DNA from: a virus
Lineage: Duplodnaviria > Heunggongvirae > Uroviricota > Caudoviricetes
IMG/VR virus record: IMGVR_UViG_2778261458_000007
Reading direction: 5' to 3' (one strand)
DNA length: 39,379 nt
The notes under the pieces were generated by a model. It was not told where the DNA came from and made no database searches. It worked only from the letters and a program-made list of their open reading frames with translations. Position numbers and translations under genes: made by a program. Below, one piece after another: positions 5,025 to 33,700 of this stretch; within the stretch, counting starts at the first letter, position 1; every line of letters begins with the position of its first letter.

Positions 5025-5041
5025 GTTACCGTTGAGGTAAT
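5025..5041. promoter_or_regulatory. Operator site 1 (OL-proximal): GTTACCGTTGAGGTAAT
   Basis: 17-bp palindrome NTTACC-N5-GGTAAN overlapping -10 and +1 of leftward early promoter. Confidence 0.6.
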
Positions 5042-5068
5042 AATTATGCGTATATGGTTTGATGTCAA
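5040..5068 (-). promoter_or_regulatory. Leftward early promoter (PL-like)
   Basis: On minus strand -35 TTGACA (5068-5063), 17-bp spacer, -10 AATTAT (5045-5040); flanked by operator sites 1 and 2. Confidence 0.5.
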
Positions 5069-5086
5069 TAGATATGAGTTAAAAAA

Positions 5087-5103
5087 ATTACCCGTTAGGT
5101 AAT
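5087..5103. promoter_or_regulatory. Operator site 2 (OL-distal): ATTACCCGTTAGGTAAT
   Basis: Perfect half-sites ATTACC/GGTAAT, between repressor terminator and leftward promoter -35. Confidence 0.6.
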
Positions 5104-5114
5104 CGAATAGGCAA

Positions 5115-5137
5115 TAAAAAAGCCGCCATAAGGCGGC
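5115..5137 (-). terminator. Intrinsic terminator after repressor gene
   Basis: Hairpin GCCGCC-ATAA-GGCGGC followed on minus strand by a T-run (plus-strand A-run 5115-5121). Confidence 0.6.
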
Positions 5138-5159
5138 TTACTTACTGAAAAATATGGTT

Positions 5160-5744
5160 TTATTGTTTGTTTTTTTCGTTCTGGTTGATGACAAATTCAA
5201 TGTAACTTTCGATCTTTGCTTTCTCGGTTTCGGGTAACAATGCGTAGCGCGAGCGATCATAGTTGATGGTCGCAGGGTCGTGCGGGTGAATCAGTAATTC
5301 ATAGCCGTGACGCCCGAATGCGGATGCAACATTCTCCAGGGTGGAAATGGAAACGCTGACCTCATTGTTTAACAGGCGGCTGATTGTCACCTGGGCTACG
5401 CCGGATGCGCGGTGAAGTTTTCCCTGTGTTGAAAGGTCGCGGCTTTCGCTCATCCAGCGTTCCAGGTTGTGAGCCGCCAGCTGGCCAATGTCGCTTGGGC
5501 CGACAGGCTGAAAACCTTCCTGAGAAAGCGAGCGATCGATATCAAGCCAGTTACGGGGTTTATTGGCGGCAGCTTCAATTTTTCGTGCAACCTGGTCGCC
5601 GATAACCTTCTTGCCAAGAGCCCAGCGGTTTACCAGATTTGCCTGAGTTCCAAGTTTTTCAGCCATCCGCGTCTGAACACCATTGAATTCACGGTCGATC
5701 AAGTCGTTGAGATTTTGCCTGCGGACGTCCTGGATACTTTTCAT
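5160..5744 (-). CDS. CI-like prophage repressor (tandem HTH, no recognisable S24 peptidase domain)
   Basis: 194-aa ORF divergent from cro-like gene across an operator cluster; two HTH-like segments (QTRMAEKLGTQANLVNRW and GVAQVTISRLLNNE); no Ala-Gly/Ser-Lys cleavage motifs seen. Confidence 0.7.
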   Translation of the reverse strand: MKSIQDVRRQNLNDLIDREFNGVQTRMAEKLGTQANLVNRWALGKKVIGDQVARKIEAAANKPRNWLDIDRSLSQEGFQPVGPSDIGQLAAHNLERWMSESRDLSTQGKLHRASGVAQVTISRLLNNEVSVSISTLENVASAFGRHGYELLIHPHDPATINYDRSRYALLPETEKAKIESYIEFVINQNEKNKQ

Positions 5745-5798
5745 TTTCTGGAAAATCGCCTCATATCTGAATCAGAAGATGATTCAATTTAAAGCAAT

Positions 5799-5815
5799 AT
5801 TACCCAACAGGTAAA
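5799..5815. promoter_or_regulatory. Operator site 3 (OR cluster): ATTACCCAACAGGTAAA
   Basis: In divergent repressor/cro intergenic region. Confidence 0.6.
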
Positions 5816-5832
5816 TGCACCTCATGGGTAAC
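5816..5832. promoter_or_regulatory. Operator site 4 (OR cluster, degenerate): TGCACCTCATGGGTAAC
   Basis: Abuts site 3; right half conserved, left half degenerate; spacer TCATG identical to site 8. Confidence 0.4.
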
Positions 5833-5844
5833 TATCCTTGATTT

Positions 5845-5873
5845 TTGTTACCTTATAGGTGAATATTTATTAT
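5845..5873 (+). promoter_or_regulatory. Rightward early promoter (PR-like)
   Basis: -35 TTGTTA (5845-5850), 17-bp spacer containing operator site 5, -10 TATTAT (5868-5873); cro-like ATG at 5899. Confidence 0.5.
5847..5863. promoter_or_regulatory. Operator site 5 (OR cluster): GTTACCTTATAGGTGAA
   Basis: Lies in the spacer between -35 TTGTTA and -10 TATTAT of the rightward cro promoter. Confidence 0.55.
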
Positions 5874-5898
5874 CTGAAATAAATATCAGGCAATAGCT

Positions 5899-6129
5899 AT
5901 GAGCGATAACGGACATTTCGATTTCAAAAAGCACTGGCTTGCACTTACTCCGGATGAGCGTGAAGCCTTCGCACAGGAAGCCGGAACGACGAGTCACTAT
6001 ATCCAGACTCACTTAACAGGTAAGCGCAAAATGCCAGGTAAGGTATTGATGGATGGGCTTTTTAAAGCCTGTAAATCAAGACAATGGCTGCGCTCAAAAG
6101 CAGAACTGGCATACTTCTTCTACTCATGA
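5899..6129 (+). CDS. Cro-like DNA-binding protein
   Basis: 76-aa ORF divergent from repressor; first gene of rightward early operon; followed by intrinsic terminator. Confidence 0.55.
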   Translation: MSDNGHFDFKKHWLALTPDEREAFAQEAGTTSHYIQTHLTGKRKMPGKVLMDGLFKACKSRQWLRSKAELAYFFYS

Positions 6130-6151
6130 TATCCAGCCACAACCCTCTGTA

Positions 6152-6173
6152 GACCGCCATCCGGCGGTCTTTT
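6152..6173 (+). terminator. Intrinsic terminator after cro-like gene
   Basis: Hairpin GACCGCC-ATCC-GGCGGTC followed by TTTT. Confidence 0.65.
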
Positions 6174-6183
6174 CATATCTATT

Positions 6184-6200
6184 CGTACCTCAAAGGTAAT
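6184..6200. promoter_or_regulatory. Operator site 6: CGTACCTCAAAGGTAAT
   Basis: Immediately after cro terminator, upstream of gene at 6280. Confidence 0.5.
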
Positions 6201-6279
6201 AAAAAACCAAATATGGTTGATCTTTTTTTTGTGTCAGCACAAAATAACCGTAATCCCAATACTAATAACAGGGCTTACC

Positions 6280-6480
6280 ATGGAAATCATTACACGTATT
6301 GATGCCGCAAAGCGCGGACTTAAACGCTACTACACCGGAAAACCATGTAAGCACGGACATGACAGTGAACGCTGGGTTTACAACGGACACTGTGTTGAGT
6401 GCACCATGGAGTCAAACCGTCGCATCAGGGCAGAGATTAAGCAGATCATGATTAATTCCTCCCCACAACACTCAAGCTGA
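6280..6480 (+). CDS. Small Cys/His-rich protein (cII-equivalent position)
   Basis: Start at ATG 6280 (MEIITRIDAAKRG); C-x-H-G-H ... C-V-E-C pattern suggests zinc binding; the ORF-track start at 6217 is a TTG. Confidence 0.45.
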   Translation: MEIITRIDAAKRGLKRYYTGKPCKHGHDSERWVYNGHCVECTMESNRRIRAEIKQIMINSSPQHSS

Positions 6481-6495
6481 TAGCGGAGATTAATC

Positions 6496-7311
6496 ATGAG
6501 CAGACATGCAACAGATTGGGCCTGGGAGACAGATCCAGGTAGCTCATCATTAAAGCTCATACTGCTCTCGATGGCTGACAGAGCCGATGAATATAACCTC
6601 TGCTACCCAAGCATAGAACGCCTCGTTAAAGACACTTGCCTGAATAAAAAAACCGTGCAGGCCGGGCTTATATCGCTCATGAAAATGGGGCTTATTTCAG
6701 ATACCGGAGAGAGAAAGGGAGCGACGAAAAGAGTGCGGGTTTTCTCTCTTAATATAACAAAAAACGGGAACATTAAAGGTAACCGGGAAGGGTGTAATGA
6801 ACCCGAAAACGGTAATGTTACCGAAAACGGGAATATACCCAAAAACGGGATGTTGAATGATCCCAAAAACGGGATGTTGAATGATCCCAAAAACGGGATC
6901 CAGAACCAGTCATATAACCAGTCATTTAACCAAGAGAGGGAGAGCAGGACAAAAAACGGGGATTCTGTGCATCATGACCCCGGCGCAAACAACGCCGTGA
7001 TGAATAACTTTGTTCCTCCTGGTGGGCCAGGGCAATTAGGAAAATTTGTCATGCATGAACAATGGCAGCCATCAGATGACTTTCTTCGGAAAAGCTCATT
7101 GCAGGGGATCTACCTGGACAGTCTGCCAACGGCACAGGAACTTGCAGAGTTCAGAATTTACTGGATGGCTGAGGGTAAGGCATACCATCAGGCACAGTGG
7201 GAGCAGAAGCTGGCAAGGCGGCTGCAGATTAGCAGACAGAAGCAATCAACATTACCTGATAACAACGTTCCGCACTGGAACAGCCCTGAAGCATGGGAGG
7301 ATTTCTTGTGA
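6496..7311 (+). CDS. Replication initiation protein (lambda O-like, iterons embedded)
   Basis: 271-aa ORF with RBS GGAG; N-terminal HTH-like domain; internal AAAACGGGA iteron array coding KNG repeats; followed by coupled P-like gene. Confidence 0.7.
   Translation: MSRHATDWAWETDPGSSSLKLILLSMADRADEYNLCYPSIERLVKDTCLNKKTVQAGLISLMKMGLISDTGERKGATKRVRVFSLNITKNGNIKGNREGCNEPENGNVTENGNIPKNGMLNDPKNGMLNDPKNGIQNQSYNQSFNQERESRTKNGDSVHHDPGANNAVMNNFVPPGGPGQLGKFVMHEQWQPSDDFLRKSSLQGIYLDSLPTAQELAEFRIYWMAEGKAYHQAQWEQKLARRLQISRQKQSTLPDNNVPHWNSPEAWEDFL
6759..6961. repeat. Iteron array (AAAACGG[G/T]A, about 7 copies) within O-like gene, putative replication origin
   Basis: Cores at 6761, 6806, 6824, 6842, 6866, 6890, 6953; three copies are exact 24-bp tandem units CCCAAAAACGGGATGTTGAATGAT (6838-6861, 6862-6885, partial 6886-6903). 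Confidence 0.6.
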
Positions 7312-8093
7312 ACAACGTTTTTACCGCGATACAAAACCGTGACGGAGAAGCCCTTTCTCGCATGTCAGGTTATGAGCATCAGTACACCAACAATGACAAC
7401 GTGGTGAACATGTCAGCAGAGAGGCTTGTTGATGCCCTTTTCAAACAGCTGAAACAACTGTTTCCGGCGGCAGTGGTAACCAACCTGAAGACGCCAGAGC
7501 AGGAAGTTGCTGCAAAACAGCAGTGGATTGCTGCGTTTGCCGAAGGGGGGATCCGAACCCGTGAGCAGGTTTCTGCTGGTATGCGCCACGCCCGCGCCAG
7601 TGAATCTCCGTTCTGGCCGTCGCCTGGGCAATTCATCAAGTGGTGTAAAGACAGCAAGATGGTTCTTGGCGTCACCATTGACGATGTGATGGCGGAGTTT
7701 CACCGGTACAGCAAGGAAAAAAGTTTATATCCTGGTGGTCCCGAAAGATTCCCGTGGCGGCATCCGGTTATGTACTGGGTCGTATGCGATACCCGCCGTG
7801 CAATGTATCAGCGCCAGCTTAGCGAGATTGAGGTTGAGAAACACGCGCGCAGGCTGCTCGATGATTGGGCGAAAAAGGTGGCTTCCGGACAGCAGATACC
7901 CGATCCTGTGATCAGCATACAGGCAAAGCCAGAACCCATGAGTACGCCTCCGGACACAGGGAGAGACGTTTACCACCCGCCAGGGCGAAGTTTCGGGTGC
8001 ATGCCTAACGCCGCCACCCTTGGGGGAATAACACCGGCGCAGTGGCTGATGGAGGAATACAGGCGGGGAAAGGCGGCAGGATTTATCAAGTAA
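7308..8093 (+). CDS. Lambda P-like replication protein (helicase loader)
   Basis: Segment QQWIAAFAEGGIRTREQVSAGMRHARASESPFWPSPGQFIKWCK closely parallels lambda P; GTG start at 7308 with GGGAGGA upstream, overlapping O stop. Confidence 0.8.
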   Translation: MNNVFTAIQNRDGEALSRMSGYEHQYTNNDNVVNMSAERLVDALFKQLKQLFPAAVVTNLKTPEQEVAAKQQWIAAFAEGGIRTREQVSAGMRHARASESPFWPSPGQFIKWCKDSKMVLGVTIDDVMAEFHRYSKEKSLYPGGPERFPWRHPVMYWVVCDTRRAMYQRQLSEIEVEKHARRLLDDWAKKVASGQQIPDPVISIQAKPEPMSTPPDTGRDVYHPPGRSFGCMPNAATLGGITPAQWLMEEYRRGKAAGFIK

Positions 8094-8098
8094 TACCA

Positions 8099-8118
8099 GC
8101 GCGATAGCGCATTTTTTT
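8099..8118 (+). terminator. Weak intrinsic terminator after P-like gene
   Basis: Short GC hairpin GCGC-GATA-GCGC followed by seven T. Confidence 0.4.
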
Positions 8119-8129
8119 ACGTCTAAATG

Positions 8130-8146
8130 GTTACCTGTTAGGTAAT
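8130..8146. promoter_or_regulatory. Operator site 7: GTTACCTGTTAGGTAAT
   Basis: After P-gene terminator, upstream of -35 TTGATT. Confidence 0.55.
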
Positions 8147-8191
8147 AAAATATTCTAAAATCTATTGATTTCGTGTCTTATGTGGTTTTTA

Positions 8192-8208
8192 ATTACCTCA
8201 TGGGTAAA
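8192..8208. promoter_or_regulatory. Operator site 8: ATTACCTCATGGGTAAA
   Basis: Overlaps -10 TTTAAT and ends 2 bp before start codon at 8211. Confidence 0.55.
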
Positions 8209-8210
8209 TC

Positions 8211-8555
8211 ATGAGAAAACAGATACAGGCTCTTGGTCGACTCAAAACAGGCCAGATGAACAAAACAGAATCTGCGTATTGCCAGCACCTTGAGCAGCGT
8301 AAACGTGCAGGGGAAATCGCCTGGTATCGATTCGAGGGTATCAAGCTGCGGTTAGCTGACAACACGTTCTATACGCCAGATTTCGCTGTGATGCTCGCCA
8401 CCGGAGAGATGGAACTGCACGAAGTGAAAGGTTTCTGGACCGACGACGCCAGGGTGAAAACCAAAGTCGCCGCAGATCAGTATCCGTTCCGAATCATCGG
8501 GGTAACGGTTAAGCCAAAGAAAGCAGGTGGTGGCTGGAACATCGAAGAGTTCTGA
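8211..8555 (+). CDS. DUF1064-like protein (putative nuclease)
   Basis: 114-aa ORF; motif pattern resembles DUF1064 phage proteins; start sits immediately after operator site 8. Confidence 0.55.
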   Translation: MRKQIQALGRLKTGQMNKTESAYCQHLEQRKRAGEIAWYRFEGIKLRLADNTFYTPDFAVMLATGEMELHEVKGFWTDDARVKTKVAADQYPFRIIGVTVKPKKAGGGWNIEEF

Positions 8556-8616
8556 ATCGACGATCTTTTTAGTTATCAATGTAATCAATAAGTTATGTGG
8601 ATAAGCGAGGGTAAAG

Positions 8617-9066
8617 ATGGAAAGTAATATCAAAGGGTTAGTTTCCGCCGGGCATGAGATGGTTTCGGAACTGAAAGCAGAATGTGGTGCCGTTGATATG
8701 CGCAGTGTGGCAAAGCTGATCAGCGATTTGGCAACGCAACTGGAAGTGCAACTGGTGCGTGCTAATGCGCTGGCGGCGGAGAATGTGGGGCTAAAGGCGA
8801 TATGTGATGACCGTCGCAGGTTCATCATGAATGGGGTGCAGATGGGTTATATCAAGGTGCCAGCAGCGGAAACAGATCCAGACCTTGAGACAATTCGCAT
8901 TGCTATATCACCACAAAAGCCCATTCCAGCCACTGATGCTTTCCTGTCTGAAGTGCGGGCGCAGGGGGTAGAGATGATGCGCGAACATCCATCAATCAAA
9001 CTTTGCTCTTTGACGCACATATGTGACGAGTTAGCCGCTCAGCTTCGCAAAGGAGGCCACCAGTGA
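8617..9066 (+). CDS. Hypothetical protein (149 aa)
   Basis: ORF with RBS GAGGG 5 nt upstream. Confidence 0.45.
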   Translation: MESNIKGLVSAGHEMVSELKAECGAVDMRSVAKLISDLATQLEVQLVRANALAAENVGLKAICDDRRRFIMNGVQMGYIKVPAAETDPDLETIRIAISPQKPIPATDAFLSEVRAQGVEMMREHPSIKLCSLTHICDELAAQLRKGGHQ

Positions 9067-9362
9067 CTGTATGTCTTATTGATAAACGTCGACGTGAGCA
9101 ACAAATACCATCTGTTGAAATGCCGAATCACACATGGTTTTGCGTACTTGATATCGATGGTATGGATGCGTTGGTTGACACTCGTCATTACTGCGATACC
9201 GCAACAGCTACTCCGGCGAAAGCAAAGAAAATGGCTGCTCTGATAGAAAACTGGACTCCACCTGATGGTTGGTGCAATGGGAATGATCGAGATTGGCATG
9301 AAAAAATGAAGGGCTATATCTGCGATTTCTTACGTAAATGCAACGGCTTCAGGGTGATGTGA
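9063..9362 (+). CDS. Hypothetical protein (99 aa)
   Basis: GTG start with AGGAGG 6 nt upstream; overlaps previous stop. Confidence 0.45.
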   Translation: MTVCLIDKRRREQQIPSVEMPNHTWFCVLDIDGMDALVDTRHYCDTATATPAKAKKMAALIENWTPPDGWCNGNDRDWHEKMKGYICDFLRKCNGFRVM

Positions 9363-9363
9363 T

Positions 9364-9933
9364 ATGACCACTATGAACAGAGAAGAACAAAAGCAAGTTC
9401 TCATAGATACAGCTAATCACGTAATCAACCGTGATAATACTTCACCATATAGCGAAAATCTTAAAGAACTGGCACGAATTGCGCTGGCATCGCTGGAAGC
9501 AGAGCCTGTAACCCAAACTTACAACTTGCCAGAATTAATCGAAGGCATGGAAGTTTCTATTGATGTAAGCACTTGTGATGCTGATTTAGGTAATCGCTAT
9601 TTCGGCACCGTCACCGAGGCGTTAGAACTTGATACAGCCAAGAATGGTTACATCCTCCTGGTTCAGGACGCAGAGCCAAACTTCGATGTAAATGGCAACT
9701 CTCCGGTAACTCCGGATGGTTGGATAAGCTGTAGTGAGCGAATGCCGGAAGACACCAAAATGTTACTGGCATTTAGTCAAGGTCGAATAGTGGCAGCATA
9801 TTGGAACTGGGTAATGAATCCAATTGATTACAAAAAATACAGAGCTTTCACATATTTATCAGGAAATATCTTGGATGACGTAACCCACTGGATGCCTCTA
9901 CCTGAACCGCCTCAGGAGGTTAACCGTGGCTAA
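9364..9933 (+). CDS. DUF551-like protein
   Basis: 189-aa ORF; C-terminal WISCSERMPED...HWMPLPEPP resembles DUF551 proteins of lambdoid nin/ea regions. Confidence 0.5.
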   Translation: MTTMNREEQKQVLIDTANHVINRDNTSPYSENLKELARIALASLEAEPVTQTYNLPELIEGMEVSIDVSTCDADLGNRYFGTVTEALELDTAKNGYILLVQDAEPNFDVNGNSPVTPDGWISCSERMPEDTKMLLAFSQGRIVAAYWNWVMNPIDYKKYRAFTYLSGNILDDVTHWMPLPEPPQEVNRG

Positions 9934-10207
9934 CCTGCAACTTGCCGTCAAAGGTGAATACTTCGATGCCATGATTCGAGGAGAGAAAACGGAAGAGTAT
10001 CGACTGTGTAATGACTACTGGAATAAGCGAATTATGTTCCGGGAGTATGACCGCCTGATTATCACAAAGGGATATCCGAAGCGCGACGATTCCAGCCGAA
10101 GAATTGATGTTCCGTATGACGGATATGAAATCAAGACAATCACACATCCCCACTTCGGCGATAAACCGGTTAAGGTGTTCGCGATAAAGGTGAATATTGA
10201 TGTCTAA
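9926..10207 (+). CDS. ASCH/PUA-like small protein
   Basis: 93-aa ORF; GTG start with AGGAGG upstream; pattern resembles ASCH/DUF3850 proteins. Confidence 0.45.
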   Translation: MANLQLAVKGEYFDAMIRGEKTEEYRLCNDYWNKRIMFREYDRLIITKGYPKRDDSSRRIDVPYDGYEIKTITHPHFGDKPVKVFAIKVNIDV

Positions 10208-10538
10208 ATCAGCAGCAGAGCGCAAAGCCGCTCAGAGAGCCAGACAAGCTGAATCCGGTGTACGTAAGCTGGAGATTGTGCTTGATGCTCAGGAAATTGA
10301 AATGCTGGAGCGTAACTGTGCCACGCGTCGCCCCGGGCGTGCGCCTTACGAATTTGGTGAGTATATAGCGTTACTGATCCGCCAGGATGATGCACGCGTG
10401 CGCGGGCGTATAAAATCGATCAGCAGAAAACGTTGCGGTAAGTGCGGCGAGAGAGTTCCTGTGAATTCATGCCCGTGTAATGGTGACTCGCAATGCTGGG
10501 TGACCAAAGGCTGGCATGAAACGAAATTAATAGTGTGA
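10200..10538 (+). CDS. Hypothetical protein (Cys-rich C-terminus)
   Basis: ATG 10200 with AAGGTG upstream; C-terminal CGKCGERVPVNSCPCNGDSQC; stop lies inside palindrome GTGACATGTCAC. Confidence 0.45.
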   Translation: MSKSAAERKAAQRARQAESGVRKLEIVLDAQEIEMLERNCATRRPGRAPYEFGEYIALLIRQDDARVRGRIKSISRKRCGKCGERVPVNSCPCNGDSQCWVTKGWHETKLIV

Positions 10539-10546
10539 CATGTCAC
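10535..10546. repeat. Palindrome GTGACATGTCAC (copy 1)
   Basis: Perfect 12-bp palindrome overlapping stop of gene ending 10538. Confidence 0.6.
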
Positions 10547-10555
10547 GAAGGTGTT

Positions 10556-10768
10556 ATGCCAAAAATACGCTACGACCTTGAAGATATGAGAGATAACTCA
10601 GCAAATTTTCCGAAAGAGGTTAAATTTCTCATGCATAAGTATGGTTGCGCCAGGAGGGATATAGTTATCGACAGTCAGCACCCTTGCGGCGAGGATGTAA
10701 TTTTCATTCGCGGTAAATGGGAAGGGTATCTTGACGAGAGTTTTTACGATGAATTTGATGGACTTTGA
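10556..10768 (+). CDS. Hypothetical protein (70 aa)
   Basis: ATG 10556 with GAAGG upstream; followed by strong intrinsic terminator. Confidence 0.4.
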   Translation: MPKIRYDLEDMRDNSANFPKEVKFLMHKYGCARRDIVIDSQHPCGEDVIFIRGKWEGYLDESFYDEFDGL

Positions 10769-10773
10769 ATACT

Positions 10774-10799
10774 GCCGCCAACTATGGCGGCTTTATTTT
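10774..10799 (+). terminator. Intrinsic terminator separating early genes from terminase operon
   Basis: Hairpin GCCGCC-AACTAT-GGCGGC followed by TTTATTTT. Confidence 0.65.
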
Positions 10800-10809
10800 G
10801 CATGGTACT

Positions 10810-10826
10810 ATTACCACAACGGTAAC
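10810..10826. promoter_or_regulatory. Operator site 9 (terminase promoter): ATTACCACAACGGTAAC
   Basis: Between strong terminator and terS start; left half overlaps extended -10 TGGTACTAT. Confidence 0.55.
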
Positions 10827-10845
10827 TATTACCACGGTGGTTATG

Positions 10846-11439
10846 ATGCCTGCTGAACCTAAAACCTATAAACGCAAATCAACGCAATTTAAGCCGCTCA
10901 CAGCAATGCAGGAGGCTTATTGCCAGTCATACATCAAAACGCCTGAAAACCAGACTCAGGCAGCGATTAACGCAGGATTCTCCCCAAATACAGCGGCAGT
11001 TAAAGCCAGTGTCATGATGCGCGATGAACGCATTCAAAAACGGATTGCCGAGTTGATGGAGGAGCGCAACAAACGAATGCGCGTCAGTGCTGATTACGTT
11101 CTCATGCGCCTGGTGGAGATCGACCAGATGGACGTGATCGATATCCTCAACGACGATGGGAGCCTTAAACCAATCCGTGAGTGGCCGAAAATCTGGCGCA
11201 CTACGCTTAGTGGCTTTGATCTGTCATCGACCATCATGAACATGAACGAGGATTCGATAGAGACAATCCTCAAAAAAATTAAATGGCCTGACAAGGTGAA
11301 GAACCTTGAGCTGATTGGTAAGCATGTTGATGTCAACGCGTTCAAAGAACGTCTGGATGTTAATGTGAATGTGACAATTGCTGATCGCATAGCAGCAGCC
11401 AGGAAGCGACTCAAAGAACGTCAGGATGGTAATCAGTGA
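10846..11439 (+). CDS. Terminase small subunit
   Basis: Conserved region LTAMQEAYCQSYIKTPENQTQAAINAGFSPNTAAV typical of Terminase_2-type small subunits; immediately upstream of terL; start chosen at second ATG for RBS spacing. Confidence 0.7.
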   Translation: MPAEPKTYKRKSTQFKPLTAMQEAYCQSYIKTPENQTQAAINAGFSPNTAAVKASVMMRDERIQKRIAELMEERNKRMRVSADYVLMRLVEIDQMDVIDILNDDGSLKPIREWPKIWRTTLSGFDLSSTIMNMNEDSIETILKKIKWPDKVKNLELIGKHVDVNAFKERLDVNVNVTIADRIAAARKRLKERQDGNQ

Positions 11440-12911: not shown

Positions 12912-12962
12912 TCCGCTGGTGGGGATAATGTCGTTGATATCCTCTGATGAGGATAAAACAAA

Positions 12963-12985
12963 GCCAGCTCATCGGCTGGCTGTTT
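12963..12985. terminator. Bidirectional hairpin/terminator between terL and gp49-like gene
   Basis: Hairpin GCCAGC-TCATCG-GCTGGC with T-rich tracts on both strands. Confidence 0.5.
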
Positions 12986-12997
12986 GTGACATGTCAC
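12986..12997. repeat. Palindrome GTGACATGTCAC (copy 2)
   Basis: Perfect 12-bp palindrome next to bidirectional hairpin, 5 bp from stop of gp49-like gene. Confidence 0.6.
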
Positions 12998-13001
12998 GGT
13001 G

Positions 13002-13379: not shown

Positions 13380-13390
13380 AATCTCACCTT

Positions 13391-13414
13391 AAAAAAATGC
13401 CCGGCGAACCGGGC
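13391..13414 (-). terminator. Intrinsic terminator upstream of gp49-like gene
   Basis: Hairpin GCCCGG-CGAA-CCGGGC followed on minus strand by seven T. Confidence 0.55.
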
Positions 13415-13492
13415 GAACTGGAAGCAATGAGTTATGCCTTCCGTGGCTGTACTGGTTTACAGCATGAAGTCATCGCAATGGCGTCCTGCTGT

Positions 13493-13534: not shown

Positions 13535-13577
13535 AAGCCCCTGGAACTTCTGGCATCACGGTCCTTAGGCGTGATTC

Positions 13578-13976: not shown

Positions 13977-13993
13977 CTTACCTGAAAGGTAAT
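13977..13993. promoter_or_regulatory. Operator site 10 (head operon / tRNA divergent region): CTTACCTGAAAGGTAAT
   Basis: In noncoding region upstream of head genes and of minus-strand tRNA. Confidence 0.55.
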
Positions 13994-14082
13994 AATTCGT
14001 GCGTTAAATGTCAACTACCTACGATAAATAAATCATATGTGGTTAAATTGGTAATAATTTAATTGCGTACGGAGTCATTGAT

Positions 14083-14289: not shown

Positions 14290-14303
14290 CCGGAGTCATT
14301 GAA

Positions 14304-23263: not shown

Positions 23264-23275
23264 GGGGATAATAAG

Positions 23276-27588: not shown

Positions 27589-27593
27589 ATTAA

Positions 27594-30068: not shown

Positions 30069-30077
30069 GGAACAACA

Positions 30078-30491
30078 ATGAAGGAATTATTGCTGTTATC
30101 GGTATTTTTGATATCCGCTTGCTCGACATCCTATGATGTTTATGACGGTGTTGATAAGGCATATTGCGACAAAGTTAAAATGGATTTTTCTCTTGCCAAG
30201 ACGGCGAAGGATAGTTGTATTGATCACTACGTCAAGACTTATACCAAGCCAGCCTCATCGGCATCTGATATTGCTGAAGGTGCTGTGTTTGAGTGTAACA
30301 AGGTGATATCCATCGCAGCGAGTTCTTCATACGATGCTGCTGTATGTGCAATGGCTGAAAGAAACGGCATGTCAGTGCAAAAAATTAATAGCATGATAAG
30401 CAGTAATGACGAAGCCAAAATAAGAACTGATATCAGCTCGGTGAAAAAAGATGCCATGAACAGAGTTGTAAAATATCAGTCATCTTTATAA
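30078..30491 (+). CDS. Lipoprotein (137 aa), last gene of late operon
   Basis: Signal peptide with lipobox LISAC; RBS AAGGAA; GC visibly lower than structural genes; followed by palindrome and terminator. Confidence 0.55.
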   Translation: MKELLLLSVFLISACSTSYDVYDGVDKAYCDKVKMDFSLAKTAKDSCIDHYVKTYTKPASSASDIAEGAVFECNKVISIAASSSYDAAVCAMAERNGMSVQKINSMISSNDEAKIRTDISSVKKDAMNRVVKYQSSL

Positions 30492-30494
30492 GTC

Positions 30495-30506
30495 GTGACA
30501 TGTCAC
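30495..30506. repeat. Palindrome GTGACATGTCAC (copy 3)
   Basis: Perfect 12-bp palindrome between lipoprotein stop and late-operon terminator. Confidence 0.6.
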
Positions 30507-30507
30507 A

Positions 30508-30531
30508 GGCCGCTTTCGCGGCCTTGTTTTT
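30508..30531 (+). terminator. Intrinsic terminator ending the late structural operon
   Basis: Hairpin GGCCGC-TTTC-GCGGCC followed by TTGTTTTT. Confidence 0.65.
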
Positions 30532-30608
30532 AACGAATGCCACCGCCACCCGGGCGGGAATCCGCAGAACGCCCACCGCTGCGGGAGCCGTCAGCAGCAG
30601 TATCGCTG

Positions 30609-31112
30609 TTATACTATTGAGTTTAATGATATCTTGTCCTTAATATCATTAAGTTTGCCATATATCTTTTTTGCATAAAAATCAGCATCCTCAATAAACC
30701 TCGACTTCTCATTATCAGGCATATTTTTGAAGGTATGTGCACATGTATATTGAGAGTAGTATTTGTGAAATTCTTGATACGCATTATTGAGTTCTTGTAA
30801 GTCTTTTTTATACTCAGGAAGGTATATGTTTATTAGCATTTCCATCGTTTGCAACGGATTCGCTCTTGATACGTCAAATTTACTATCAGAGTGGTATCTG
30901 GCATTTTTTACGAAATTGAGAATGGTAATTGTGCTTGAATCTATGACTTTTTTAGTAAGTATACAATTTATAAATAATTGCTCGCATTTATCCCTTAATA
31001 TTTTTTGTCGCTCTAATCTTATGCTGTTTTTGTATCCTTGTCTTGCATTTATATAAGTGGAAACTATAGCAATAACTGCACCTATCAATGCGCCTAAGAT
31101 AGTATTATCCAT
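30609..31112 (-). CDS. Membrane-anchored protein of unknown function
   Basis: Start ATG 31112 with AGGTGG upstream; one N-terminal TM segment (ILGALIGAVIAIVSTYI); AT-rich coding sequence. Confidence 0.5.
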   Translation of the reverse strand: MDNTILGALIGAVIAIVSTYINARQGYKNSIRLERQKILRDKCEQLFINCILTKKVIDSSTITILNFVKNARYHSDSKFDVSRANPLQTMEMLINIYLPEYKKDLQELNNAYQEFHKYYSQYTCAHTFKNMPDNEKSRFIEDADFYAKKIYGKLNDIKDKISLNSIV

Positions 31113-31137
31113 ATAAGCCACCTAAACTGCGTAAAAT

Positions 31138-32001
31138 TTATTTCCTGCCACTTCTGTAGTATATGTTGCGACCATTTTTGGTCACATTAACAACATGACC
31201 CTTTGTTTCTACTTTGTTATTTGTTGCCTTATATACTTCAAAGTCAAACCATGATATATGACTTATTTCGTCTATAGATACCATAATTTCTAGACCTTGA
31301 ACTTTCTTTTTGCTTATCCCTTTTATCGCAGCACTGCGCTTAATTTGGATTTCACCTGGGTAAGCGTTTGTAAATGTAACAGATAAATTTTCTTTGTTTC
31401 TGTACCCTGACATTAAAGGAACAAAAGATATGTGTTGGTGTGGCCCTTGATTTTCCGTTGGCTCACCAGAACCATTTATTATTCCAACGTATACTTTATT
31501 TGATGATAAAGTAATTAACATTGGTTTCTTAGGATCTGATTCGATTGCATCAAGCAATAGCAAATCTAAAGAACCCTGGGAGTACGTTTTTCGCAATACC
31601 CTAGCTTTCATTGCCTCTGATATTTTGTCATAAATATCACGTTTATAAAAACAACCTAAAAGAAGATCTTTTAGCCAAACAAAAGATACATAACACAAAG
31701 AGAAGCAAATTGATGTGACTGACAGAAGAAGTAGCCACATGTAAATTCTATCTGTTTCTGGTTTTGACGTTACATTAAAAGTTTCCACCATATCGTGAAC
31801 TAGGTGAAAATCAGGATATTTATATTTTATAAATGAGGCAATTATTACCGAAGCAACAAGGCAATATGTACCTAATGCAGCTACTTTCATATAAAGAAGC
31901 TGGCCTTCATGTCGGTATAAACGGAAATAATGATACTGGTTAGCGGTTATCATAATATAACCACTAACCAGAATGGGGATAATTAGAAGAGCTAACAACA
32001 C
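31138..32001 (-). CDS. Membrane protein of unknown function (three N-terminal TM segments plus soluble domain)
   Basis: 287-aa ORF; GTG start overlapping stop of upstream 69-aa gene, RBS AAGGA; hydrophobic stretches at roughly residues 1-20, 40-60, 85-105; AT-rich. Confidence 0.5.
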   Translation of the reverse strand: MLLALLIIPILVSGYIMITANQYHYFRLYRHEGQLLYMKVAALGTYCLVASVIIASFIKYKYPDFHLVHDMVETFNVTSKPETDRIYMWLLLLSVTSICFSLCYVSFVWLKDLLLGCFYKRDIYDKISEAMKARVLRKTYSQGSLDLLLLDAIESDPKKPMLITLSSNKVYVGIINGSGEPTENQGPHQHISFVPLMSGYRNKENLSVTFTNAYPGEIQIKRSAAIKGISKKKVQGLEIMVSIDEISHISWFDFEVYKATNNKVETKGHVVNVTKNGRNIYYRSGRK

Positions 32002-32210
32002 TATTTCCTTACAGTGGCAAGATCCTGTTTAACGATTGCAGCAGCGAGACGACGCATCTCCTTAACCTCAGGAAGCTCAGAAATTTGCTGTGATGAGATA
32101 TACACTCCACCACGCTTGTTAACCTGCGCTGACGCCGGAACTTCTGCATTTTTTGCCTGAGGGCTGGGTGCATTATCCCTCGTTTTTGTACGAGCGAACC
32201 AAAATCCCAT
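32001..32210 (-). CDS. Small basic protein (69 aa), first gene of accessory operon
   Basis: Strong RBS AGGAGGAGAT; directly downstream of operator-overlapped promoter. Confidence 0.45.
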   Translation of the reverse strand: MGFWFARTKTRDNAPSPQAKNAEVPASAQVNKRGGVYISSQQISELPEVKEMRRLAAAIVKQDLATVRK

Positions 32211-32235
32211 ATCTCCTCCTCATGTAAACACATGG

Positions 32236-32252
32236 TTTACCTTTAAGGTAAT
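32236..32252. promoter_or_regulatory. Operator site 11 (accessory operon promoter): TTTACCTTTAAGGTAAT
   Basis: Overlaps -10 and +1 of leftward promoter TTGCAG-17-TACTAT. Confidence 0.55.
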
Positions 32253-32279
32253 AGTACGCTATTCACCCCCGGTCTGCAA
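32251..32279 (-). promoter_or_regulatory. Promoter of accessory membrane-protein operon
   Basis: On minus strand -35 TTGCAG (32279-32274), 17-bp spacer, -10 TACTAT (32256-32251) overlapping operator site 11. Confidence 0.45.
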
Positions 32280-32290
32280 TCTGTACAGAA

Positions 32291-32315
32291 TTATTTAAAG
32301 GCACATCCCTGTGCC
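32291..32315 (-). terminator. Hairpin terminator after Bro-N gene
   Basis: Hairpin GGCACA-GGGA-TGTGCC followed on minus strand by TTTAAATAA. Confidence 0.45.
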
Positions 32316-32323
32316 GCCGCCCG

Positions 32324-33034
32324 TCAGAAGAACCCTGCCTTGTCGTTGATGTACTCCGCGTGTGTCTGGATATCACGCAGGCATTTGCTCACACCGACGA
32401 TGTAGCAGAACATGGTGGTCAGCTCCGCCGCTGCGCCCGATACGTCGTGCCCGTCGTCCTGTAACTGGTTCAGCAGATTCATCAGCAGTGAGTTCTCTGT
32501 CAGGCCGAGAACACCAGACGGCGAATGAATCAGGCTGCGGTAGCCGGGCTTCAGTGGGGCGCTGTAGGTTTTGTTCTCTACCTTCATTGCCTGCATCACT
32601 GCTGACGCCGTGGCGTTGGCTACCTGGTCGGCAACCATCTTTATGCGTTCTTCCTGCGGGAGCGAGTTTTTAATGTAGCGTCCGGTGCGGCGGATCTGAG
32701 GAAGAACCTCACCTGTAACCCATTTACGAAAGCGGTAGGGTATAGTGCCTGGTGTCACTGCGTCGCGGCAGCGTAGGATCAGTGTGTAGAGGCCTGACTC
32801 GGAGATGATGTTGATCTCTTTTACTCGGCTGTCAAAAATTGCACGATGTTCATGCCCTATGTTGAACATAGACCTTTCATCATCATCCAGTTTTTCAAGT
32901 GCTTGGGTGACGTTTTGGATACGCAGCGCACTACAAACGTCTTGGGCTACAAACCATGGTTGGCCATCGATAATGATGGAACGGATAGGGTTAACAGATT
33001 CAAATTTGAAGATGGCAGTTTGAGCATTAGCCAT
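32324..33034 (-). CDS. Bro-N domain antirepressor-like protein
   Basis: N-terminal region FVAQDVCSALRIQN...ISESGLYTLILRCRD...FRKWVTGEVLPQIRRTG matches Bro-N-type antirepressors; start ATG 33034 with GGAG upstream. Confidence 0.65.
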   Translation of the reverse strand: MANAQTAIFKFESVNPIRSIIIDGQPWFVAQDVCSALRIQNVTQALEKLDDDERSMFNIGHEHRAIFDSRVKEINIISESGLYTLILRCRDAVTPGTIPYRFRKWVTGEVLPQIRRTGRYIKNSLPQEERIKMVADQVANATASAVMQAMKVENKTYSAPLKPGYRSLIHSPSGVLGLTENSLLMNLLNQLQDDGHDVSGAAAELTTMFCYIVGVSKCLRDIQTHAEYINDKAGFF

Positions 33035-33190
33035 GGTGGTTATCTCCACTTAGTGATTTTAATCACCACCGCAACGCCAATTACTGGTGGTGAACTGGAC
33101 AAGGTTGGCGTACCGGCCTAAGTGGTACCGGCGTCCTTTCGGACCCCTGCCCAGCCCACCATAATTCGGATATAGCTGTGCTTAACGCAT

Positions 33191-33213
33191 AAAAAAACCA
33201 CGTCTGGCGTGGT
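33191..33213 (-). terminator. Intrinsic terminator inside leader upstream of Bro-N gene
   Basis: Hairpin ACCACG-CCAGA-CGTGGT followed on minus strand by T-run. Confidence 0.55.
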
Positions 33214-33302
33214 ATGCGCCACTTAGTAACCCGGGACGCCAATCCCGGCACTGGATTTTGCCAGTGCCTGATTACTATGGCACAAGAGGAGTGCGATGTA
33301 AA

Positions 33303-33319
33303 TTTACCTCAAAGGTAAA
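33303..33319. promoter_or_regulatory. Operator site 12 (antirepressor leader promoter): TTTACCTCAAAGGTAAA
   Basis: Overlaps -10 of leftward promoter TTGCAA-17-TATATT. Confidence 0.55.
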
Positions 33320-33346
33320 TATAAGCACTCCACTTGGTAATTGCAA
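33318..33346 (-). promoter_or_regulatory. Promoter of structured leader/sRNA upstream of Bro-N gene
   Basis: On minus strand -35 TTGCAA (33346-33341), 17-bp spacer, -10 TATATT (33323-33318) overlapping operator site 12. Confidence 0.45.
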
Positions 33347-33349
33347 ACC

Positions 33350-33607
33350 TTATCTGGTTTGTTTTCGTAATTGTTCGGCACAATAGTCGAGATGTGTTTG
33401 CAGCTCCTGCATAGACATCTGTGAGCTGGTGACGTAGTTAATCAGTGCAGTCAGTTCGGCAAGTGGGCCATCGACATTAAATCCATCCTTATCGAGATCC
33501 CGGAGTAATTTCATCAAGTGCGATCCCTCCACCAGTGATCTGACGCCTCCCGGCGTGTGAATCCTTTCGGTAAATCCGTCTTCCAGTGGATAGTGATACT
33601 GCTGCAT
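33350..33607 (-). CDS. Small antirepressor-like protein (homolog of Bro-N protein C-terminal domain), LexA-box associated
   Basis: About 45 percent identity by eye to residues about 150-215 of the Bro-N protein (shared LAELT, QTH..Y); start at second ATG 33607 with GGAG RBS; LexA box 23 bp upstream. Confidence 0.5.
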   Translation of the reverse strand: MQQYHYPLEDGFTERIHTPGGVRSLVEGSHLMKLLRDLDKDGFNVDGPLAELTALINYVTSSQMSMQELQTHLDYCAEQLRKQTR

Positions 33608-33629
33608 CTTAATCTTCTCCATGCAATAA

Positions 33630-33645
33630 CTGTATATTTATACAG
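33630..33645. promoter_or_regulatory. LexA (SOS) box CTGTATATTTATACAG
   Basis: CTGT-N8-ACAG with AT-rich centre; extended match AACTGTATATTTATACAGTA to consensus TACTGTATATATATACAGTA; 23 bp upstream of small antirepressor-like gene. Confidence 0.75.
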
Positions 33646-33683
33646 TAGCAAATAATTTGTTTGCTATCCAGCACGTTTTGCAA

Positions 33684-33700
33684 ATTACCTGAAAGGTAAT
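33684..33700. promoter_or_regulatory. Operator site 13: ATTACCTGAAAGGTAAT (perfect palindrome)
   Basis: In divergent region between LexA-boxed small gene and tailspike gene; preceded by TTGCAA. Confidence 0.6.

What the first reader, a model, noticed from the sequence alone, without database searches (positions are those of the whole stretch)
5025..33700. Dispersed family of at least 13 palindromic 17-bp operators (TTACC-N5-GGTAA) at almost every operon junction
Thirteen sites fit NTTACC-N5-GGTAAN, eleven with the exact core TACC-N5-GGTA: 5025, 5087, 5799, 5816, 5847, 6184, 8130, 8192, 10810, 13977, 32236, 33303, 33684. All are intergenic. The 8-nt core is expected less than once by chance in 39 kb. 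Three sit between the divergent repressor and cro-like genes and two flank the leftward early promoter, so the simplest reading is that they are repressor/Cro operators. The remaining eight lie at promoters for replication-region genes, terminase, head genes, the accessory operon, the antirepressor leader and the tailspike. Operators spread across late and accessory operons recall the stoperators of mycobacteriophage L5 and the conserved inverted repeats of Streptomyces phiC31, not the two-locus arrangement of lambda or P22. No Q-like antiterminator or late activator was recognised, so this repressor may gate late transcription directly.
Basis: partly seen in the sequence, partly recalled or inferred. 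Interest (0 to 1): 0.85.

Follow-up and report, generated by a model that had tools for sequence, protein, structure and literature searches.

The report
Scattered repressor operators in phiV10-like prophage
A 17-bp palindrome repeated at most operon junctions of this E. coli prophage is real and is almost certainly the binding site of the phage's lysogeny repressor, but the same sites are already annotated in the related phage epsilon15, so this is a solid, largely known feature.

Summary
TACC-N5-GGTA occurs 11 times against 0.2 expected. With three near-matches there are 14 sites, all in the 6.7% of the window that is non-coding.

The window is a phiV10-like Uetakevirus prophage. Its 194-aa repressor is a full-length homologue of Salmonella phage SPC32H Rep (PDB 5D50). 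Its 90-aa gene at 33350-33622 is the SPC32H antirepressor Ant, preceded by a perfect LexA box.

The motif sits at the same junctions in phiV10, epsilon15, SPC32H, Tyrion, PAT1, a Klebsiella phage and a Serratia prophage. The epsilon15 GenBank record already labels seven such sites, including those before terminase, portal and tailspike genes, as repressor-binding. An unrelated Pseudomonas lambdoid phage with the same type of DNA-binding domain uses TTACC-N4-GGTAA, only at OL and OR.

The operator reading is therefore well supported and not new. The claim that the repressor alone gates late genes is only partly supported:
- Late-region operators lie 50-60 bp upstream of -10-like elements.
- A second conserved box (TRTGGTT) accompanies them.
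- The lysis promoter here has that box but no operator.
- Candidate regulators exist.

Interest is low to moderate.

The parts
5025..5041 (.). Operator OL-proximal (GTTACCGTTGAGGTAAT). It starts directly after the -10 of the leftward early promoter and covers +1.
   Evidence: conserved in A9
5087..5103 (.). Operator OL-distal, 62 bp from 5025 and 18 bp upstream of the PL -35.
   Evidence: the 62-bp spacing is kept in all relatives except BUCT711, where it is 63 bp
5040..5068 (-). PL-like promoter TTGACA-17-AATTAT.
   Evidence: 10 of 12 matches
5160..5744 (-). rep: 194-aa repressor with an N-terminal HTH DNA-binding domain, a middle HTH_3-like domain and a C-terminal tail.
   Evidence: PDB 5D50_A, E 4e-42 over residues 1-190; Pfam; 100% identical to the phiV10 and ZX5 repressors
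5799..5815 (.). OR operator nearest rep. It overlaps the putative -35 and spacer of the rep promoter (inferred).
5816..5832 (.). Middle OR operator with a degenerate left arm (TGCACC...GGTAAC).
   Evidence: in epsilon15 and SPC32H the equivalent site is a full match
5847..5863 (.). OR operator over the rightward promoter (TTGATT 5838-5843 / GAATAT 5861-5866, or TTGTTA-17-TATTAT 5845-5873).
5899..6129 (+). cro-like 76-aa HTH protein.
   Evidence: phrog_35 'transcriptional repressor'; 59-84% identical across the genus
6184..6200 (.). Operator 14 nt after the cro terminator (6151-6170) and 16 nt upstream of promoter TTGATC (6217-6222)-17-CAAAAT (6240-6245).
8130..8146 (.). Upstream operator of the post-replication promoter cassette. 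It follows a terminator (stem from about 8099, T-run to about 8119).
8192..8208 (.). Downstream operator, 62 bp from 8130. It overlaps the -10 (TTTAAT 8188-8193), +1 and the Shine-Dalgarno of the gene starting at 8211.
10810..10826 (.). First of two tandem operators between terminator 10774-10791 and the terS start.
10828..10844 (.). Second tandem operator (one mismatch). It covers the terS ribosome-binding site and ends at the ATG.
13977..13993 (.). Operator 90 nt upstream of the portal/head operon (gp3 start 14083). A conserved TTGACA on the minus strand lies at 14014..14009.
32236..32252 (.). Operator directly after the -10 of a leftward promoter (TTGCAG 32279..32274, 17-nt spacer, TACTAT 32256..32251) for a three-gene accessory operon (32210 to 30609).
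   Evidence: genes of unknown function
33303..33319 (.). Operator over the -10 and +1 of leftward promoter TTGCAA-17-TATATT (33346..33318). That promoter leads through a short ORF and a terminator to the Bro-N gene 32324-33049.
33350..33622 (-). ant: 90-aa antirepressor of the SPC32H type.
   Evidence: PDB 5D50_E, E 1.8e-46
33630..33645 (.). LexA box CTGTATATTTATACAG next to the ant start.
   Evidence: invariant CTGT/ACAG arms in six phages
33684..33700 (.). Operator abutting the -35 (TTGCAA 33683..33678) of the ant promoter, 104 nt upstream of the tailspike start (33804).
14031..14044 (+). Second conserved box (AATCATATGTGGTT, core TGTGGTT) upstream of the portal operon. The TGTGGTT core starts 61 bp after the operator start in all six phages.
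33726..33739 (+). Second conserved box upstream of the tailspike gene. The core starts 49 bp after the operator start in all six phages, although the spacer is only 41-56% identical.
36217..36243 (+). Lysis-operon promoter-like element: box ATTCATAAATGGTT, 7 nt, then TATAAT (36238-36243). No operator lies upstream in this window.
6205..6218 (+). Second conserved box (AACCAAATATGGTT) overlapping the -35 of the replication-operon promoter.

Best explanation
The 14 palindromes (consensus ATTACC-N5-GGTAAT) are the operators of the prophage repressor Rep (5160-5744). Rep belongs to the SPC32H/epsilon15 family of non-cleavable repressors.

Binding (inferred from the SPC32H structure work as described in PMC9638917 and PMC9986798). 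Rep binds DNA as a tetramer. Pairs of N-terminal HTH domains each read one palindrome, so one tetramer can hold two operators.

Effect at each group of sites (inferred):
- At PL and at the promoter after the replication genes, two operators exactly 62 bp apart (about six helical turns) bracket the promoter. The downstream operator begins right after the -10.
- At OR, three adjacent operators cover the divergent rep and cro-like promoters.
- At the accessory-operon and Bro-N promoters, a single operator begins right after the -10, which is classical steric repression.
- At terS, two tandem operators sit between a terminator and the start codon.
- At the portal, tailspike and (in relatives) lysis junctions, one operator sits at a fixed distance upstream of a promoter-like element.

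In a lysogen, Rep therefore shuts most transcription units individually. Each unit is insulated from the previous one by an intrinsic terminator.

Induction (inferred by homology). DNA damage removes LexA from the box at 33630-33645. Ant (33350-33622) is then made and breaks the Rep tetramer, so all operators are vacated together.

Shown here: the sites, their statistics, their conservation and spacing, and the protein homologies. Inferred: which protein occupies which site, and the effect on transcription.
For: Statistics. 11 exact cores against 0.20 expected. All 14 sites lie in the 6.7% non-coding DNA.

Protein identity. Rep is homologous to SPC32H Rep over its full length (5D50_A, E 4e-42). 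Ant matches 5D50_E (E 1.8e-46). A LexA box precedes ant.

Prior annotation. The epsilon15 record AY150271.2 carries seven 'protein_bind / repressor / lysogeny' features whose sequences are ATTACC-N5-GGTAAT. They lie before terS, before gp3/portal, between gp19 and the tailspike gene, at PL, and before the RuvC-like gene.

Conservation. The same motif occupies the same junctions in phiV10, epsilon15, SPC32H, Tyrion, PAT1, Klebsiella BUCT711 and a Serratia prophage. The operator arms are invariant while the flanks diverge or cannot be aligned. The recognition-helix region NLVNRW and much of the N-terminal domain are invariant among five Reps that are only 43-78% identical overall.

Independent control. 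Pseudomonas phage PseuP_224 cI shares this N-terminal domain (39% identity, E 1e-12) fused to Peptidase_S24. Its OR and OL carry TTACC-N4-GGTAA and nothing elsewhere. The half-site therefore follows the domain.

Geometry. The 62-bp pairs are conserved at two loci in every phage tested, apart from 63 bp at the PL pair of BUCT711. A -10 hexamer is immediately followed by TACC at PL, 8192, 32236, 33303 and 10828. Operator-to-promoter-element distances are invariant across phages, even where the spacer sequence is 41-56% identical.

Functional data from others. Overexpressing the identical repressor in phage ZX5 abolished free phage and cut endolysin and holin transcripts by about 99.97-99.99% (PMC9782041; identity of the repressor).
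Against: - The SPC32H and epsilon15 primary papers are not in the library.
- The cro-like protein could bind the same sites.
- At the portal, tailspike and lysis junctions the operator does not overlap the rightward -10-like element. It lies about 50-60 bp upstream, so direct repression there needs looping or a partner.
- This window's lysis promoter has no operator at all.
- No canonical -35/-10 pair could be found at terS, so the role of that pair is unclear.
- A covariation test was impossible, because the motif is unchanged in every Rep relative found, down to 42% identity.
Confidence: 0.8

Rival explanations
1. The late rightward operons (portal/head, tailspike, lysis) are not gated by Rep directly. 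They are driven by promoters marked by the second conserved box (core TRTGGTT followed by a -10-like hexamer and lacking a -35). These promoters need a phage factor made only after Rep is removed. The operators at 13977 and 33684 mainly serve the leftward promoters beside them (the ant promoter, and a conserved TTGACA at 14014..14009).
For: - The box is conserved and lies at a fixed place in six or seven phages.
- All six exact ATRTGGTT hits are intergenic and on the + strand. AACCATATATGGTT with up to 3 mismatches gives 11 hits against 1.8 expected.
- The lysis promoter in this window and in PAS61 keeps the box and the -10 but has no operator.
- Operator 33684 abuts the -35 of the ant promoter.
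- Candidate regulators exist.
Against: - The operator-to-box distance is strictly conserved despite sequence turnover, which argues that the operator is coupled to the rightward element.
- The distance from the box to the likely -10 differs between junctions (0, 7 and 21 nt), so the box is not a simple promoter element.
- No binder has been identified.
- The copy at PL is not conserved in the epsilon15 group.
Confidence: 0.4
2. The same palindromes are also, or at some junctions mainly, used by the 76-aa cro-like protein. It would repress promoters where the site covers +1, and could activate promoters where the site is centred near -70 (a class-I-like position), giving an early-to-late switch.
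For: - The cro-like protein is far more conserved (59-84%) than Rep (43-78%) across phages that share the invariant motif.
- It belongs to phrog_35, 'transcriptional repressor'.
- It is the first gene of the rightward promoter under OR.
- With the likeliest -10 assignments, the operator start lies 66-67 bp before the -10 at the late junctions and 56-58 bp before it at the early ones, one helical turn apart (the -10 assignments are my inference).
Against: - There is no evidence for its DNA specificity.
- The -10 assignments at the late junctions are uncertain.
- The PseuP_224 control links the half-site to the Rep-type domain, not to Cro.
Confidence: 0.3
3. Operators placed just downstream of intrinsic terminators (6184, 8130, 10810/10828) act as roadblocks to read-through transcription, like the stoperators of mycobacteriophage L5, rather than as promoter operators.
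For: - Three junctions have a terminator ending 10-19 nt before the operator.
- At terS no -35/-10 pair is detectable, and the two operators fill the whole gap up to the ATG.
Against: - At 6184 and 8130 a conserved -35/-10 pair lies just downstream, so a promoter-linked role is simpler.
- The sites are palindromic and show no orientation bias.
- None lies inside a transcription unit.
Confidence: 0.2
4. The motif is not a regulator site. It could be a chance product of AT-rich intergenic composition, a methylase or restriction target, or a host-factor site.
For: The phage encodes a DNA methylase. The non-coding DNA is more AT-rich than the window as a whole (43% against 49% GC).
Against: - Shuffled non-coding segments give 0.03 sites against 11 observed.
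- The arms are invariant while the central 5 nt vary.
- Positions are syntenic across genera.
- A methylase target would not avoid 93% of the genome.
Confidence: 0.02

Closest known systems
Predicted repressor-binding sites of Salmonella phage epsilon15 (GenBank AY150271.2; Kropinski et al. 2007, Virology 369:234. The paper could not be read here; the record was.)
   Same: The 17-bp palindrome ATTACC-N5-GGTAAT is the same. The junctions are the same: before terS, before the gp3/portal operon, between the small antirepressor gene and the tailspike gene, at PL, and after the replication genes. The genus and gene order are the same.
   Different: The repressors are only 42% identical. The epsilon15 record marks 7 sites and omits the three at OR and several others that a scan finds. 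This window has extra sites at an accessory operon (32236) and a Bro-N gene (33303). It lacks the site before the lysis operon and, being cut at the int start, the one before int.
Rep-Ant-LexA lysis-lysogeny switch of Salmonella phage SPC32H (Kim & Ryu 2013, J Virol 87:11775; Kim et al. 2016, PNAS 113:E2480; PDB 5D50 and 5D4Z)
   Same: Full-length Rep and Ant homologues are present. A LexA box precedes ant. The operator motif and layout in the SPC32H genome are the same. According to PMC9638917 and PMC9986798, Rep binds palindromic sites as a tetramer and Ant breaks the tetramer.
   Different: Which operators were tested experimentally in SPC32H could not be checked here. PMC9986798 states that the structural mechanism of repression 'has not been extensively characterized'. 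This window additionally carries a Bro-N-type putative antirepressor gene with its own operator.
Lambda/P22-type two-locus operators, here represented by Pseudomonas phage PseuP_224 (OP795451.1)
   Same: The DNA-binding-domain family and the half-site TTACC/GGTAA are the same. OR is tripartite and lies between the repressor and the first rightward gene. An OL pair lies after the repressor's terminator.
   Different: PseuP_224 has a 4-nt centre instead of 5. Its repressor carries Peptidase_S24. It has operators at two loci only and an annotated Q antiterminator. The window's Rep has no S24 domain, and its operators lie at nine junctions.
Stoperators of mycobacteriophage L5 (gp71) and conserved inverted repeats of Streptomyces phiC31 (from my own knowledge, not checked here)
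   Same: One repressor has many sites spread over the genome beyond the immunity region, including late regions.
   Different: As I recall, L5 stoperators are asymmetric 13-bp sites. They are oriented with transcription, often lie inside transcription units, and block elongation. The sites here are palindromic 17-mers at operon junctions, mostly overlapping or phased with promoters. The proteins are unrelated.

Membership tests
Uetakevirus (epsilon15/SPC32H-type) Rep operator regulon | Repressor homologous over its full length to SPC32H Rep (N-terminal DNA-binding domain, middle domain, C-terminal tetramerisation/Ant-binding part) with no S24 peptidase domain. | tested here: met
   5D50_A E 4e-42 over residues 1-190. 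Pfam finds only HTH families.
Uetakevirus (epsilon15/SPC32H-type) Rep operator regulon | Small Ant antirepressor gene divergent from the tailspike gene, with a LexA box at its promoter. | tested here: met
   5D50_E E 1.8e-46. CTGTATATTTATACAG at 33630-33645, conserved in six phages.
Uetakevirus (epsilon15/SPC32H-type) Rep operator regulon | Operator sequence equal to the sites annotated as repressor-binding in epsilon15. | tested here: met
   The seven annotated epsilon15 features read ATTACC-N5-GGTAAT. The window consensus is the same.
Uetakevirus (epsilon15/SPC32H-type) Rep operator regulon | Sites at syntenic junctions, including the two conserved 62-bp pairs. | tested here: met
Uetakevirus (epsilon15/SPC32H-type) Rep operator regulon | Physical binding of Rep to each site, with repression of the adjacent promoter. 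| not testable with these tools
   Needs EMSA, footprinting, ChIP or reporters. The primary papers are not held.
L5-type stoperators | Asymmetric site with one orientation relative to transcription. | tested here: not met
   The sites are palindromic. The position counts are symmetric by construction, but the TTACC/GGTAA arms are exact in each of the 11 core sites.
L5-type stoperators | Sites inside transcription units, acting on elongation. | tested here: inconclusive
   All sites are intergenic. Most overlap or flank promoter-like elements. Only the terS pair, which follows a terminator and has no recognisable promoter, could fit a roadblock.
Lambda-type OL/OR immunity | Operators confined to two loci flanking the repressor gene. 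| tested here: not met
   Nine junctions carry sites. The PseuP_224 control shows the two-locus pattern.
Lambda-type OL/OR immunity | RecA-stimulated self-cleaving repressor (S24 peptidase domain). | tested here: not met
   No Peptidase_S24 hit in Rep. It is present in PseuP_224 cI.

The most novel reading that the evidence does not exclude
Uetakeviruses may run their whole programme without antitermination. In this reading every operon is closed by a terminator and reopened by its own promoter. A tetrameric repressor holds each promoter from a phased operator (62-bp pairs, or one operator at a fixed distance of one more helical turn). The late promoters additionally depend on a second, so far undescribed directional box (TRTGGTT) read by an unidentified phage factor. 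Candidates are the highly conserved cro-like protein or the 113-aa phrog_536 protein. The operator would then be a dual-use element: repressive under Rep and phase-coupled to an activator in lytic growth.
Probability: 0.3. Interest if true: 0.55.

Novelty: new member of a known kind. Interest (0 to 1): 0.3.

Why it matters
About one in ten complete E. coli genomes carries this regulatory region (531 of 5426). Relatives occur in Salmonella, Klebsiella, Enterobacter and Serratia. Knowing that one repressor has operators at most operon junctions has three uses:
- It explains how these prophages stay silent without a lambda-style cascade.
- It gives a ready list of sites for ChIP and reporter work.
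- It lets annotators transfer the epsilon15 'repressor-binding' features to phiV10-like records, which lack them.

It does not open a new class of regulation, because the motif and the repressor family are already public. The still-open part is how late genes are timed. The fixed operator-to-promoter spacing and the second box make that question testable.

Tried and rejected
1. Reading the primary papers (Kropinski 2007; Kim & Ryu 2013; Kim 2016). None is held. Five literature searches found only secondary descriptions.

2. A covariation test of operator against recognition helix. Relatives with Rep down to 42% identity, and with helix variants NLISRW and NLVSRW, were found. The Klebsiella phage and the Serratia prophage examined still use TTACC-N5-GGTAA, so there is no covariation to score. 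The word-based protein search returned only relatives of at least 52% identity. The PseuP_224 control was used instead.

3. A strict sigma-70 scan. It finds PL, PR and the Bro-N promoter but nothing at 6184, 8192, terS, portal or tailspike. Weaker promoters there were read by eye from the alignments and are inference.

4. The idea that the second box is a 14-bp palindrome (AACC-N6-GGTT) present at PL. This was rejected in part. Only the TRTGGTT half is conserved, and the PL copy is absent in the epsilon15 group.

5. The idea that the box sits at a fixed distance from the -10. Rejected, since the distances are 0, 7 and 21 nt.

6. Defence-system and family searches of the accessory operon and other small ORFs. 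Nothing informative came back.

7. Technical point. Loci L004-L006 and L009 were never exported to the script sandbox. They were analysed with the alignment and search tools instead.

Full report
**Observation**

The core TACC-N5-GGTA occurs 11 times in the window, at exactly the coordinates given. Dinucleotide-preserving shuffles give 0.20, and none of 100 reaches 11. A 14th site, ATTACCACGGTGGTTAT at 10828, lies 18 bp after 10810.

Using a gene map transferred from the phiV10 and PAS61 annotations, 2639 bases (6.7%) are non-coding, and all 14 sites fall there. Shuffling the non-coding segments themselves yields 0.03 sites. Nine of 17 intergenic gaps of at least 40 nt carry one or more sites.

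The only caveat is the terS start. The sites are intergenic if terS begins at the ATG at 10843 or 10846, as alignment with five relatives indicates. They are not if the upstream TTG, or the start annotated in phiV10, is used.

**What the window is**

The immunity region is 98% identical to Escherichia phages vB_EcoP_PAS61, phiv142-3 and phiV10. The structural region is about 97% identical to the same group. These are temperate podoviruses of the genus Uetakevirus, whose type phage is Salmonella phage epsilon15. The window runs from the integrase start to just past the lysis genes and an attP-like core.

**The proteins**

- The 194-aa repressor is 100% identical to those of phiV10 and ZX5. It aligns over its whole length with the repressor Rep of Salmonella phage SPC32H, PDB 5D50 chain A (E 4e-42).
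- Rep has an N-terminal Cro/YdaS-like HTH and a second HTH_3-like domain, and no S24 peptidase.
- The 90-aa gene at 33350-33622 (minus strand) matches the SPC32H antirepressor Ant, 5D50 chain E (E 1.8e-46).
- Next to the ant start lies a perfect LexA box, CTGTATATTTATACAG (33630-33645). Its arms are invariant in six phages.

Secondary accounts say that SPC32H Rep binds palindromic sites as a tetramer, with the paired DNA-binding domains coming from different dimers. They also say that tetrameric Ant splits the Rep tetramer (PMC9638917; PMC9986798). From memory, Kim & Ryu 2013 showed that LexA controls ant and that Rep is not cleaved. I could not read that paper here.

**The sites are already annotated elsewhere**

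The epsilon15 GenBank record AY150271.2 carries seven 'protein_bind, repressor, lysogeny' features. Their sequences are ATTACC-N5-GGTAAT. They lie before terS, before the gp3/portal operon, between gp19 (the Ant homologue) and the tailspike gene, three at PL, and one before the RuvC-like gene. The phiV10 record has no such features.

A weight matrix built from the window's sites finds the motif at the same junctions in:
- phiV10, epsilon15 and SPC32H;
- Enterobacter phage Tyrion;
- Salmonella phage PAT1;
- Klebsiella phage BUCT711;
- a Serratia prophage whose Rep is 54% identical.

In alignments of each junction the two arms are invariant, the central five bases vary, and the upstream flanks are often unalignable.

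**Who binds**

No covariation test was possible, because the motif never changes within the family. Two lines of evidence point to Rep.

1. Five Reps that are only 43-78% identical overall keep the recognition-helix region NLVNRW and about half of the first 70 residues invariant.
2. Pseudomonas phage PseuP_224 is an unrelated lambdoid siphovirus. Its cI has an N-terminal domain 39% identical to that of Rep (E 1e-12), fused to Peptidase_S24. Its operators are TTACC-N4-GGTAA. There are three between cI and the first rightward gene and two after the cI terminator, and none elsewhere. That phage has an annotated Q antiterminator.

The half-site thus follows the domain. The dispersed layout is a property of the Rep phages, not of the domain.

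**Architecture in the window**

1. PL. TTGACA-17-AATTAT (5068..5040) is bracketed by operators 5025 and 5087, 62 bp apart. The downstream one starts directly after the -10.
2. The promoter after the replication genes has the same cassette. It reads terminator, operator 8130, 18 nt, TTGATT (8165-8170), 17 nt, TTTAAT (8188-8193), then operator 8192. That operator also holds the ribosome-binding site of the gene starting at 8211. The 62-bp spacing at these two loci is kept in all the phages tested, apart from 63 bp at the PL pair of BUCT711.
3. OR has three operators at steps of 17 and 31 bp. Site 5847 lies over the rightward promoter. Sites 5799 and 5816 lie over and just upstream of the likely rep promoter, an arrangement like lambda OR1-3 (inference).
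4. Single operators start right after a -10 at two leftward promoters. One is for a three-gene accessory operon (TTGCAG-17-TACTAT, operator 32236). The other is for the Bro-N gene (TTGCAA-17-TATATT, operator 33303).
5. Operator 6184 follows the cro terminator. It lies 16 nt upstream of a conserved TTGATC-17-CAAAAT.
6. The tandem pair 10810/10828 fills the gap between terminator 10774-10791 and the terS ATG. I could find no -35/-10 pair there.
7. Operator 33684 abuts the -35 of the ant promoter and lies 104 nt before the tailspike start. Operator 13977 lies 90 nt before the portal operon.

**Late genes**

At the portal, tailspike and (in relatives) lysis junctions, the operator does not overlap a rightward promoter.

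A second conserved element lies downstream of it. Its core is TRTGGTT, within AACCATATATGGTT-like sequence, and it is followed by -10-like hexamers. The enrichment figures are:
- six exact ATRTGGTT hits against 2.8 expected, all intergenic and all on the + strand;
- 11 hits with up to 3 mismatches against 1.8 expected.

The distance from the operator start to the start of the TRTGGTT core is invariant across phages at each junction:
- 61 bp at portal;
- 49 bp at tailspike;
- 52 bp at lysis;
- 51 bp after the replication genes;
- 28 bp after cro (29 bp in SPC32H).

This holds even though the tailspike spacer is only 41-56% identical between phages. Fixed length with free sequence argues that the operator is mechanically coupled to what lies downstream.

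Three things argue against Rep being the only gate. In this window, and in PAS61, the lysis junction keeps the box and a perfect TATAAT (36238-36243) but has no operator. Candidate regulators exist: an AlpA-family protein (2498-2746), a PerC-like protein (2089-2388), and a 113-aa phrog_536 'transcriptional regulator' at the end of the early rightward operon (10197-10538). The cro-like protein is more conserved (59-84%) than Rep.

Rep probably acts at these junctions. A further factor is likely needed to fire the late promoters, and I cannot say which one.

Published overexpression of the identical repressor in ZX5 lowered endolysin and holin transcripts by about 99.97-99.99% (PMC9782041). That fits either direct or indirect control.

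**Comparison and novelty**

This is a member of the epsilon15/SPC32H Rep-Ant-LexA system, and every membership feature I could test was met.
- It works unlike lambda. Operators lie at nine junctions, there is no self-cleaving repressor, and a terminator closes each unit.
- It is unlike L5 stoperators. The sites are palindromic, lie at junctions and are linked to promoters.

The dispersed operator set is already public for epsilon15, so the finding is a new member of a known kind.

What may be new is the regularity of the junction modules, the phase-locked spacing and the second box. These are observations without a demonstrated mechanism.

**Verdict**

- The operator interpretation is supported, with confidence about 0.8.
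- Sole direct gating of late genes is unproven, at about 0.4-0.5.
- Interest is 0.3.

Noticed in passing
window 6205-6218, 8174-8187, 14031-14044, 33346-33359, 33726-33739, 36217-36230: A second conserved intergenic motif (core T[AG]TGGTT within AACCATATATGGTT-like sequence) lies at a fixed distance downstream of the operators, and in place of a -35 at the portal, tailspike and lysis junctions. Its binder is unknown, and it is not annotated in any record seen.
   Followed up: partly
window 36078-36292: The lysis-operon junction has the second motif plus a perfect TATAAT (36238-36243) but no TTACC-N5-GGTAA operator. phiV10, epsilon15, SPC32H, Tyrion and PAT1 have AT(C/T)ACC-N5-GGTAAT 52 bp upstream of the core.
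   Followed up: partly
window 33630-33645 and 33350-33622 (minus strand): A perfect LexA box lies next to a 90-aa gene that matches the SPC32H antirepressor (PDB 5D50_E). Ant is much more conserved between this phage and SPC32H than Rep is (42% identity).
   Followed up: yes
window 10765-10850; L001 (phiV10) 41-715: The phiV10 record starts terS upstream of the two operators. Alignment with five relatives puts the start at the ATG right after the second operator, so the phiV10 start looks too early.
   Followed up: partly
L010 (Pseudomonas phage PseuP_224) 10906-10945 and 11768-11820: A lambdoid phage whose cI shares Rep's N-terminal domain uses the same half-sites with a 4-nt centre (TTACC-N4-GGTAA), only at OL and OR.
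   Followed up: yes
window 10197-10538: A 113-aa protein of phrog_536 ('transcriptional regulator') is one of the last genes of the early rightward operon, just before terS. That is the position Q holds in lambda. It has no Pfam, NCBIfam or PDB sequence match.
   Followed up: partly
window 33081-33251 and 33197-33213 (minus strand): Between the operator-controlled promoter at 33346..33318 and the Bro-N gene lie a 56-aa ORF and a terminator-like hairpin. This suggests an attenuated leader.
   Followed up: no
window 38171-38211 and 38309-39379: A long hairpin contains an attP-like core (ATTGAGTGGAATGATT; the core published for ZX5/phiV10 has one more G). It is followed by two minus-strand genes, the first of which (38309-38848) belongs to phage family phrog_1094. 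The right end may therefore be another phage-derived element rather than core chromosome.
   Followed up: no
window 33250-33810: This ant/tailspike regulatory region is present at 80% or more coverage in 523 of 5426 complete E. coli genomes, mostly at 95-99% identity.
   Followed up: partly
window 14009-14014 (minus strand): A TTGACA on the minus strand is invariant in six phages but lies only 11-13 nt from the AATTAT/ATATTA that precedes operator 13977. That is too close for a normal sigma-70 promoter. It looks like a PL-type cassette with a shortened spacer.
   Followed up: no
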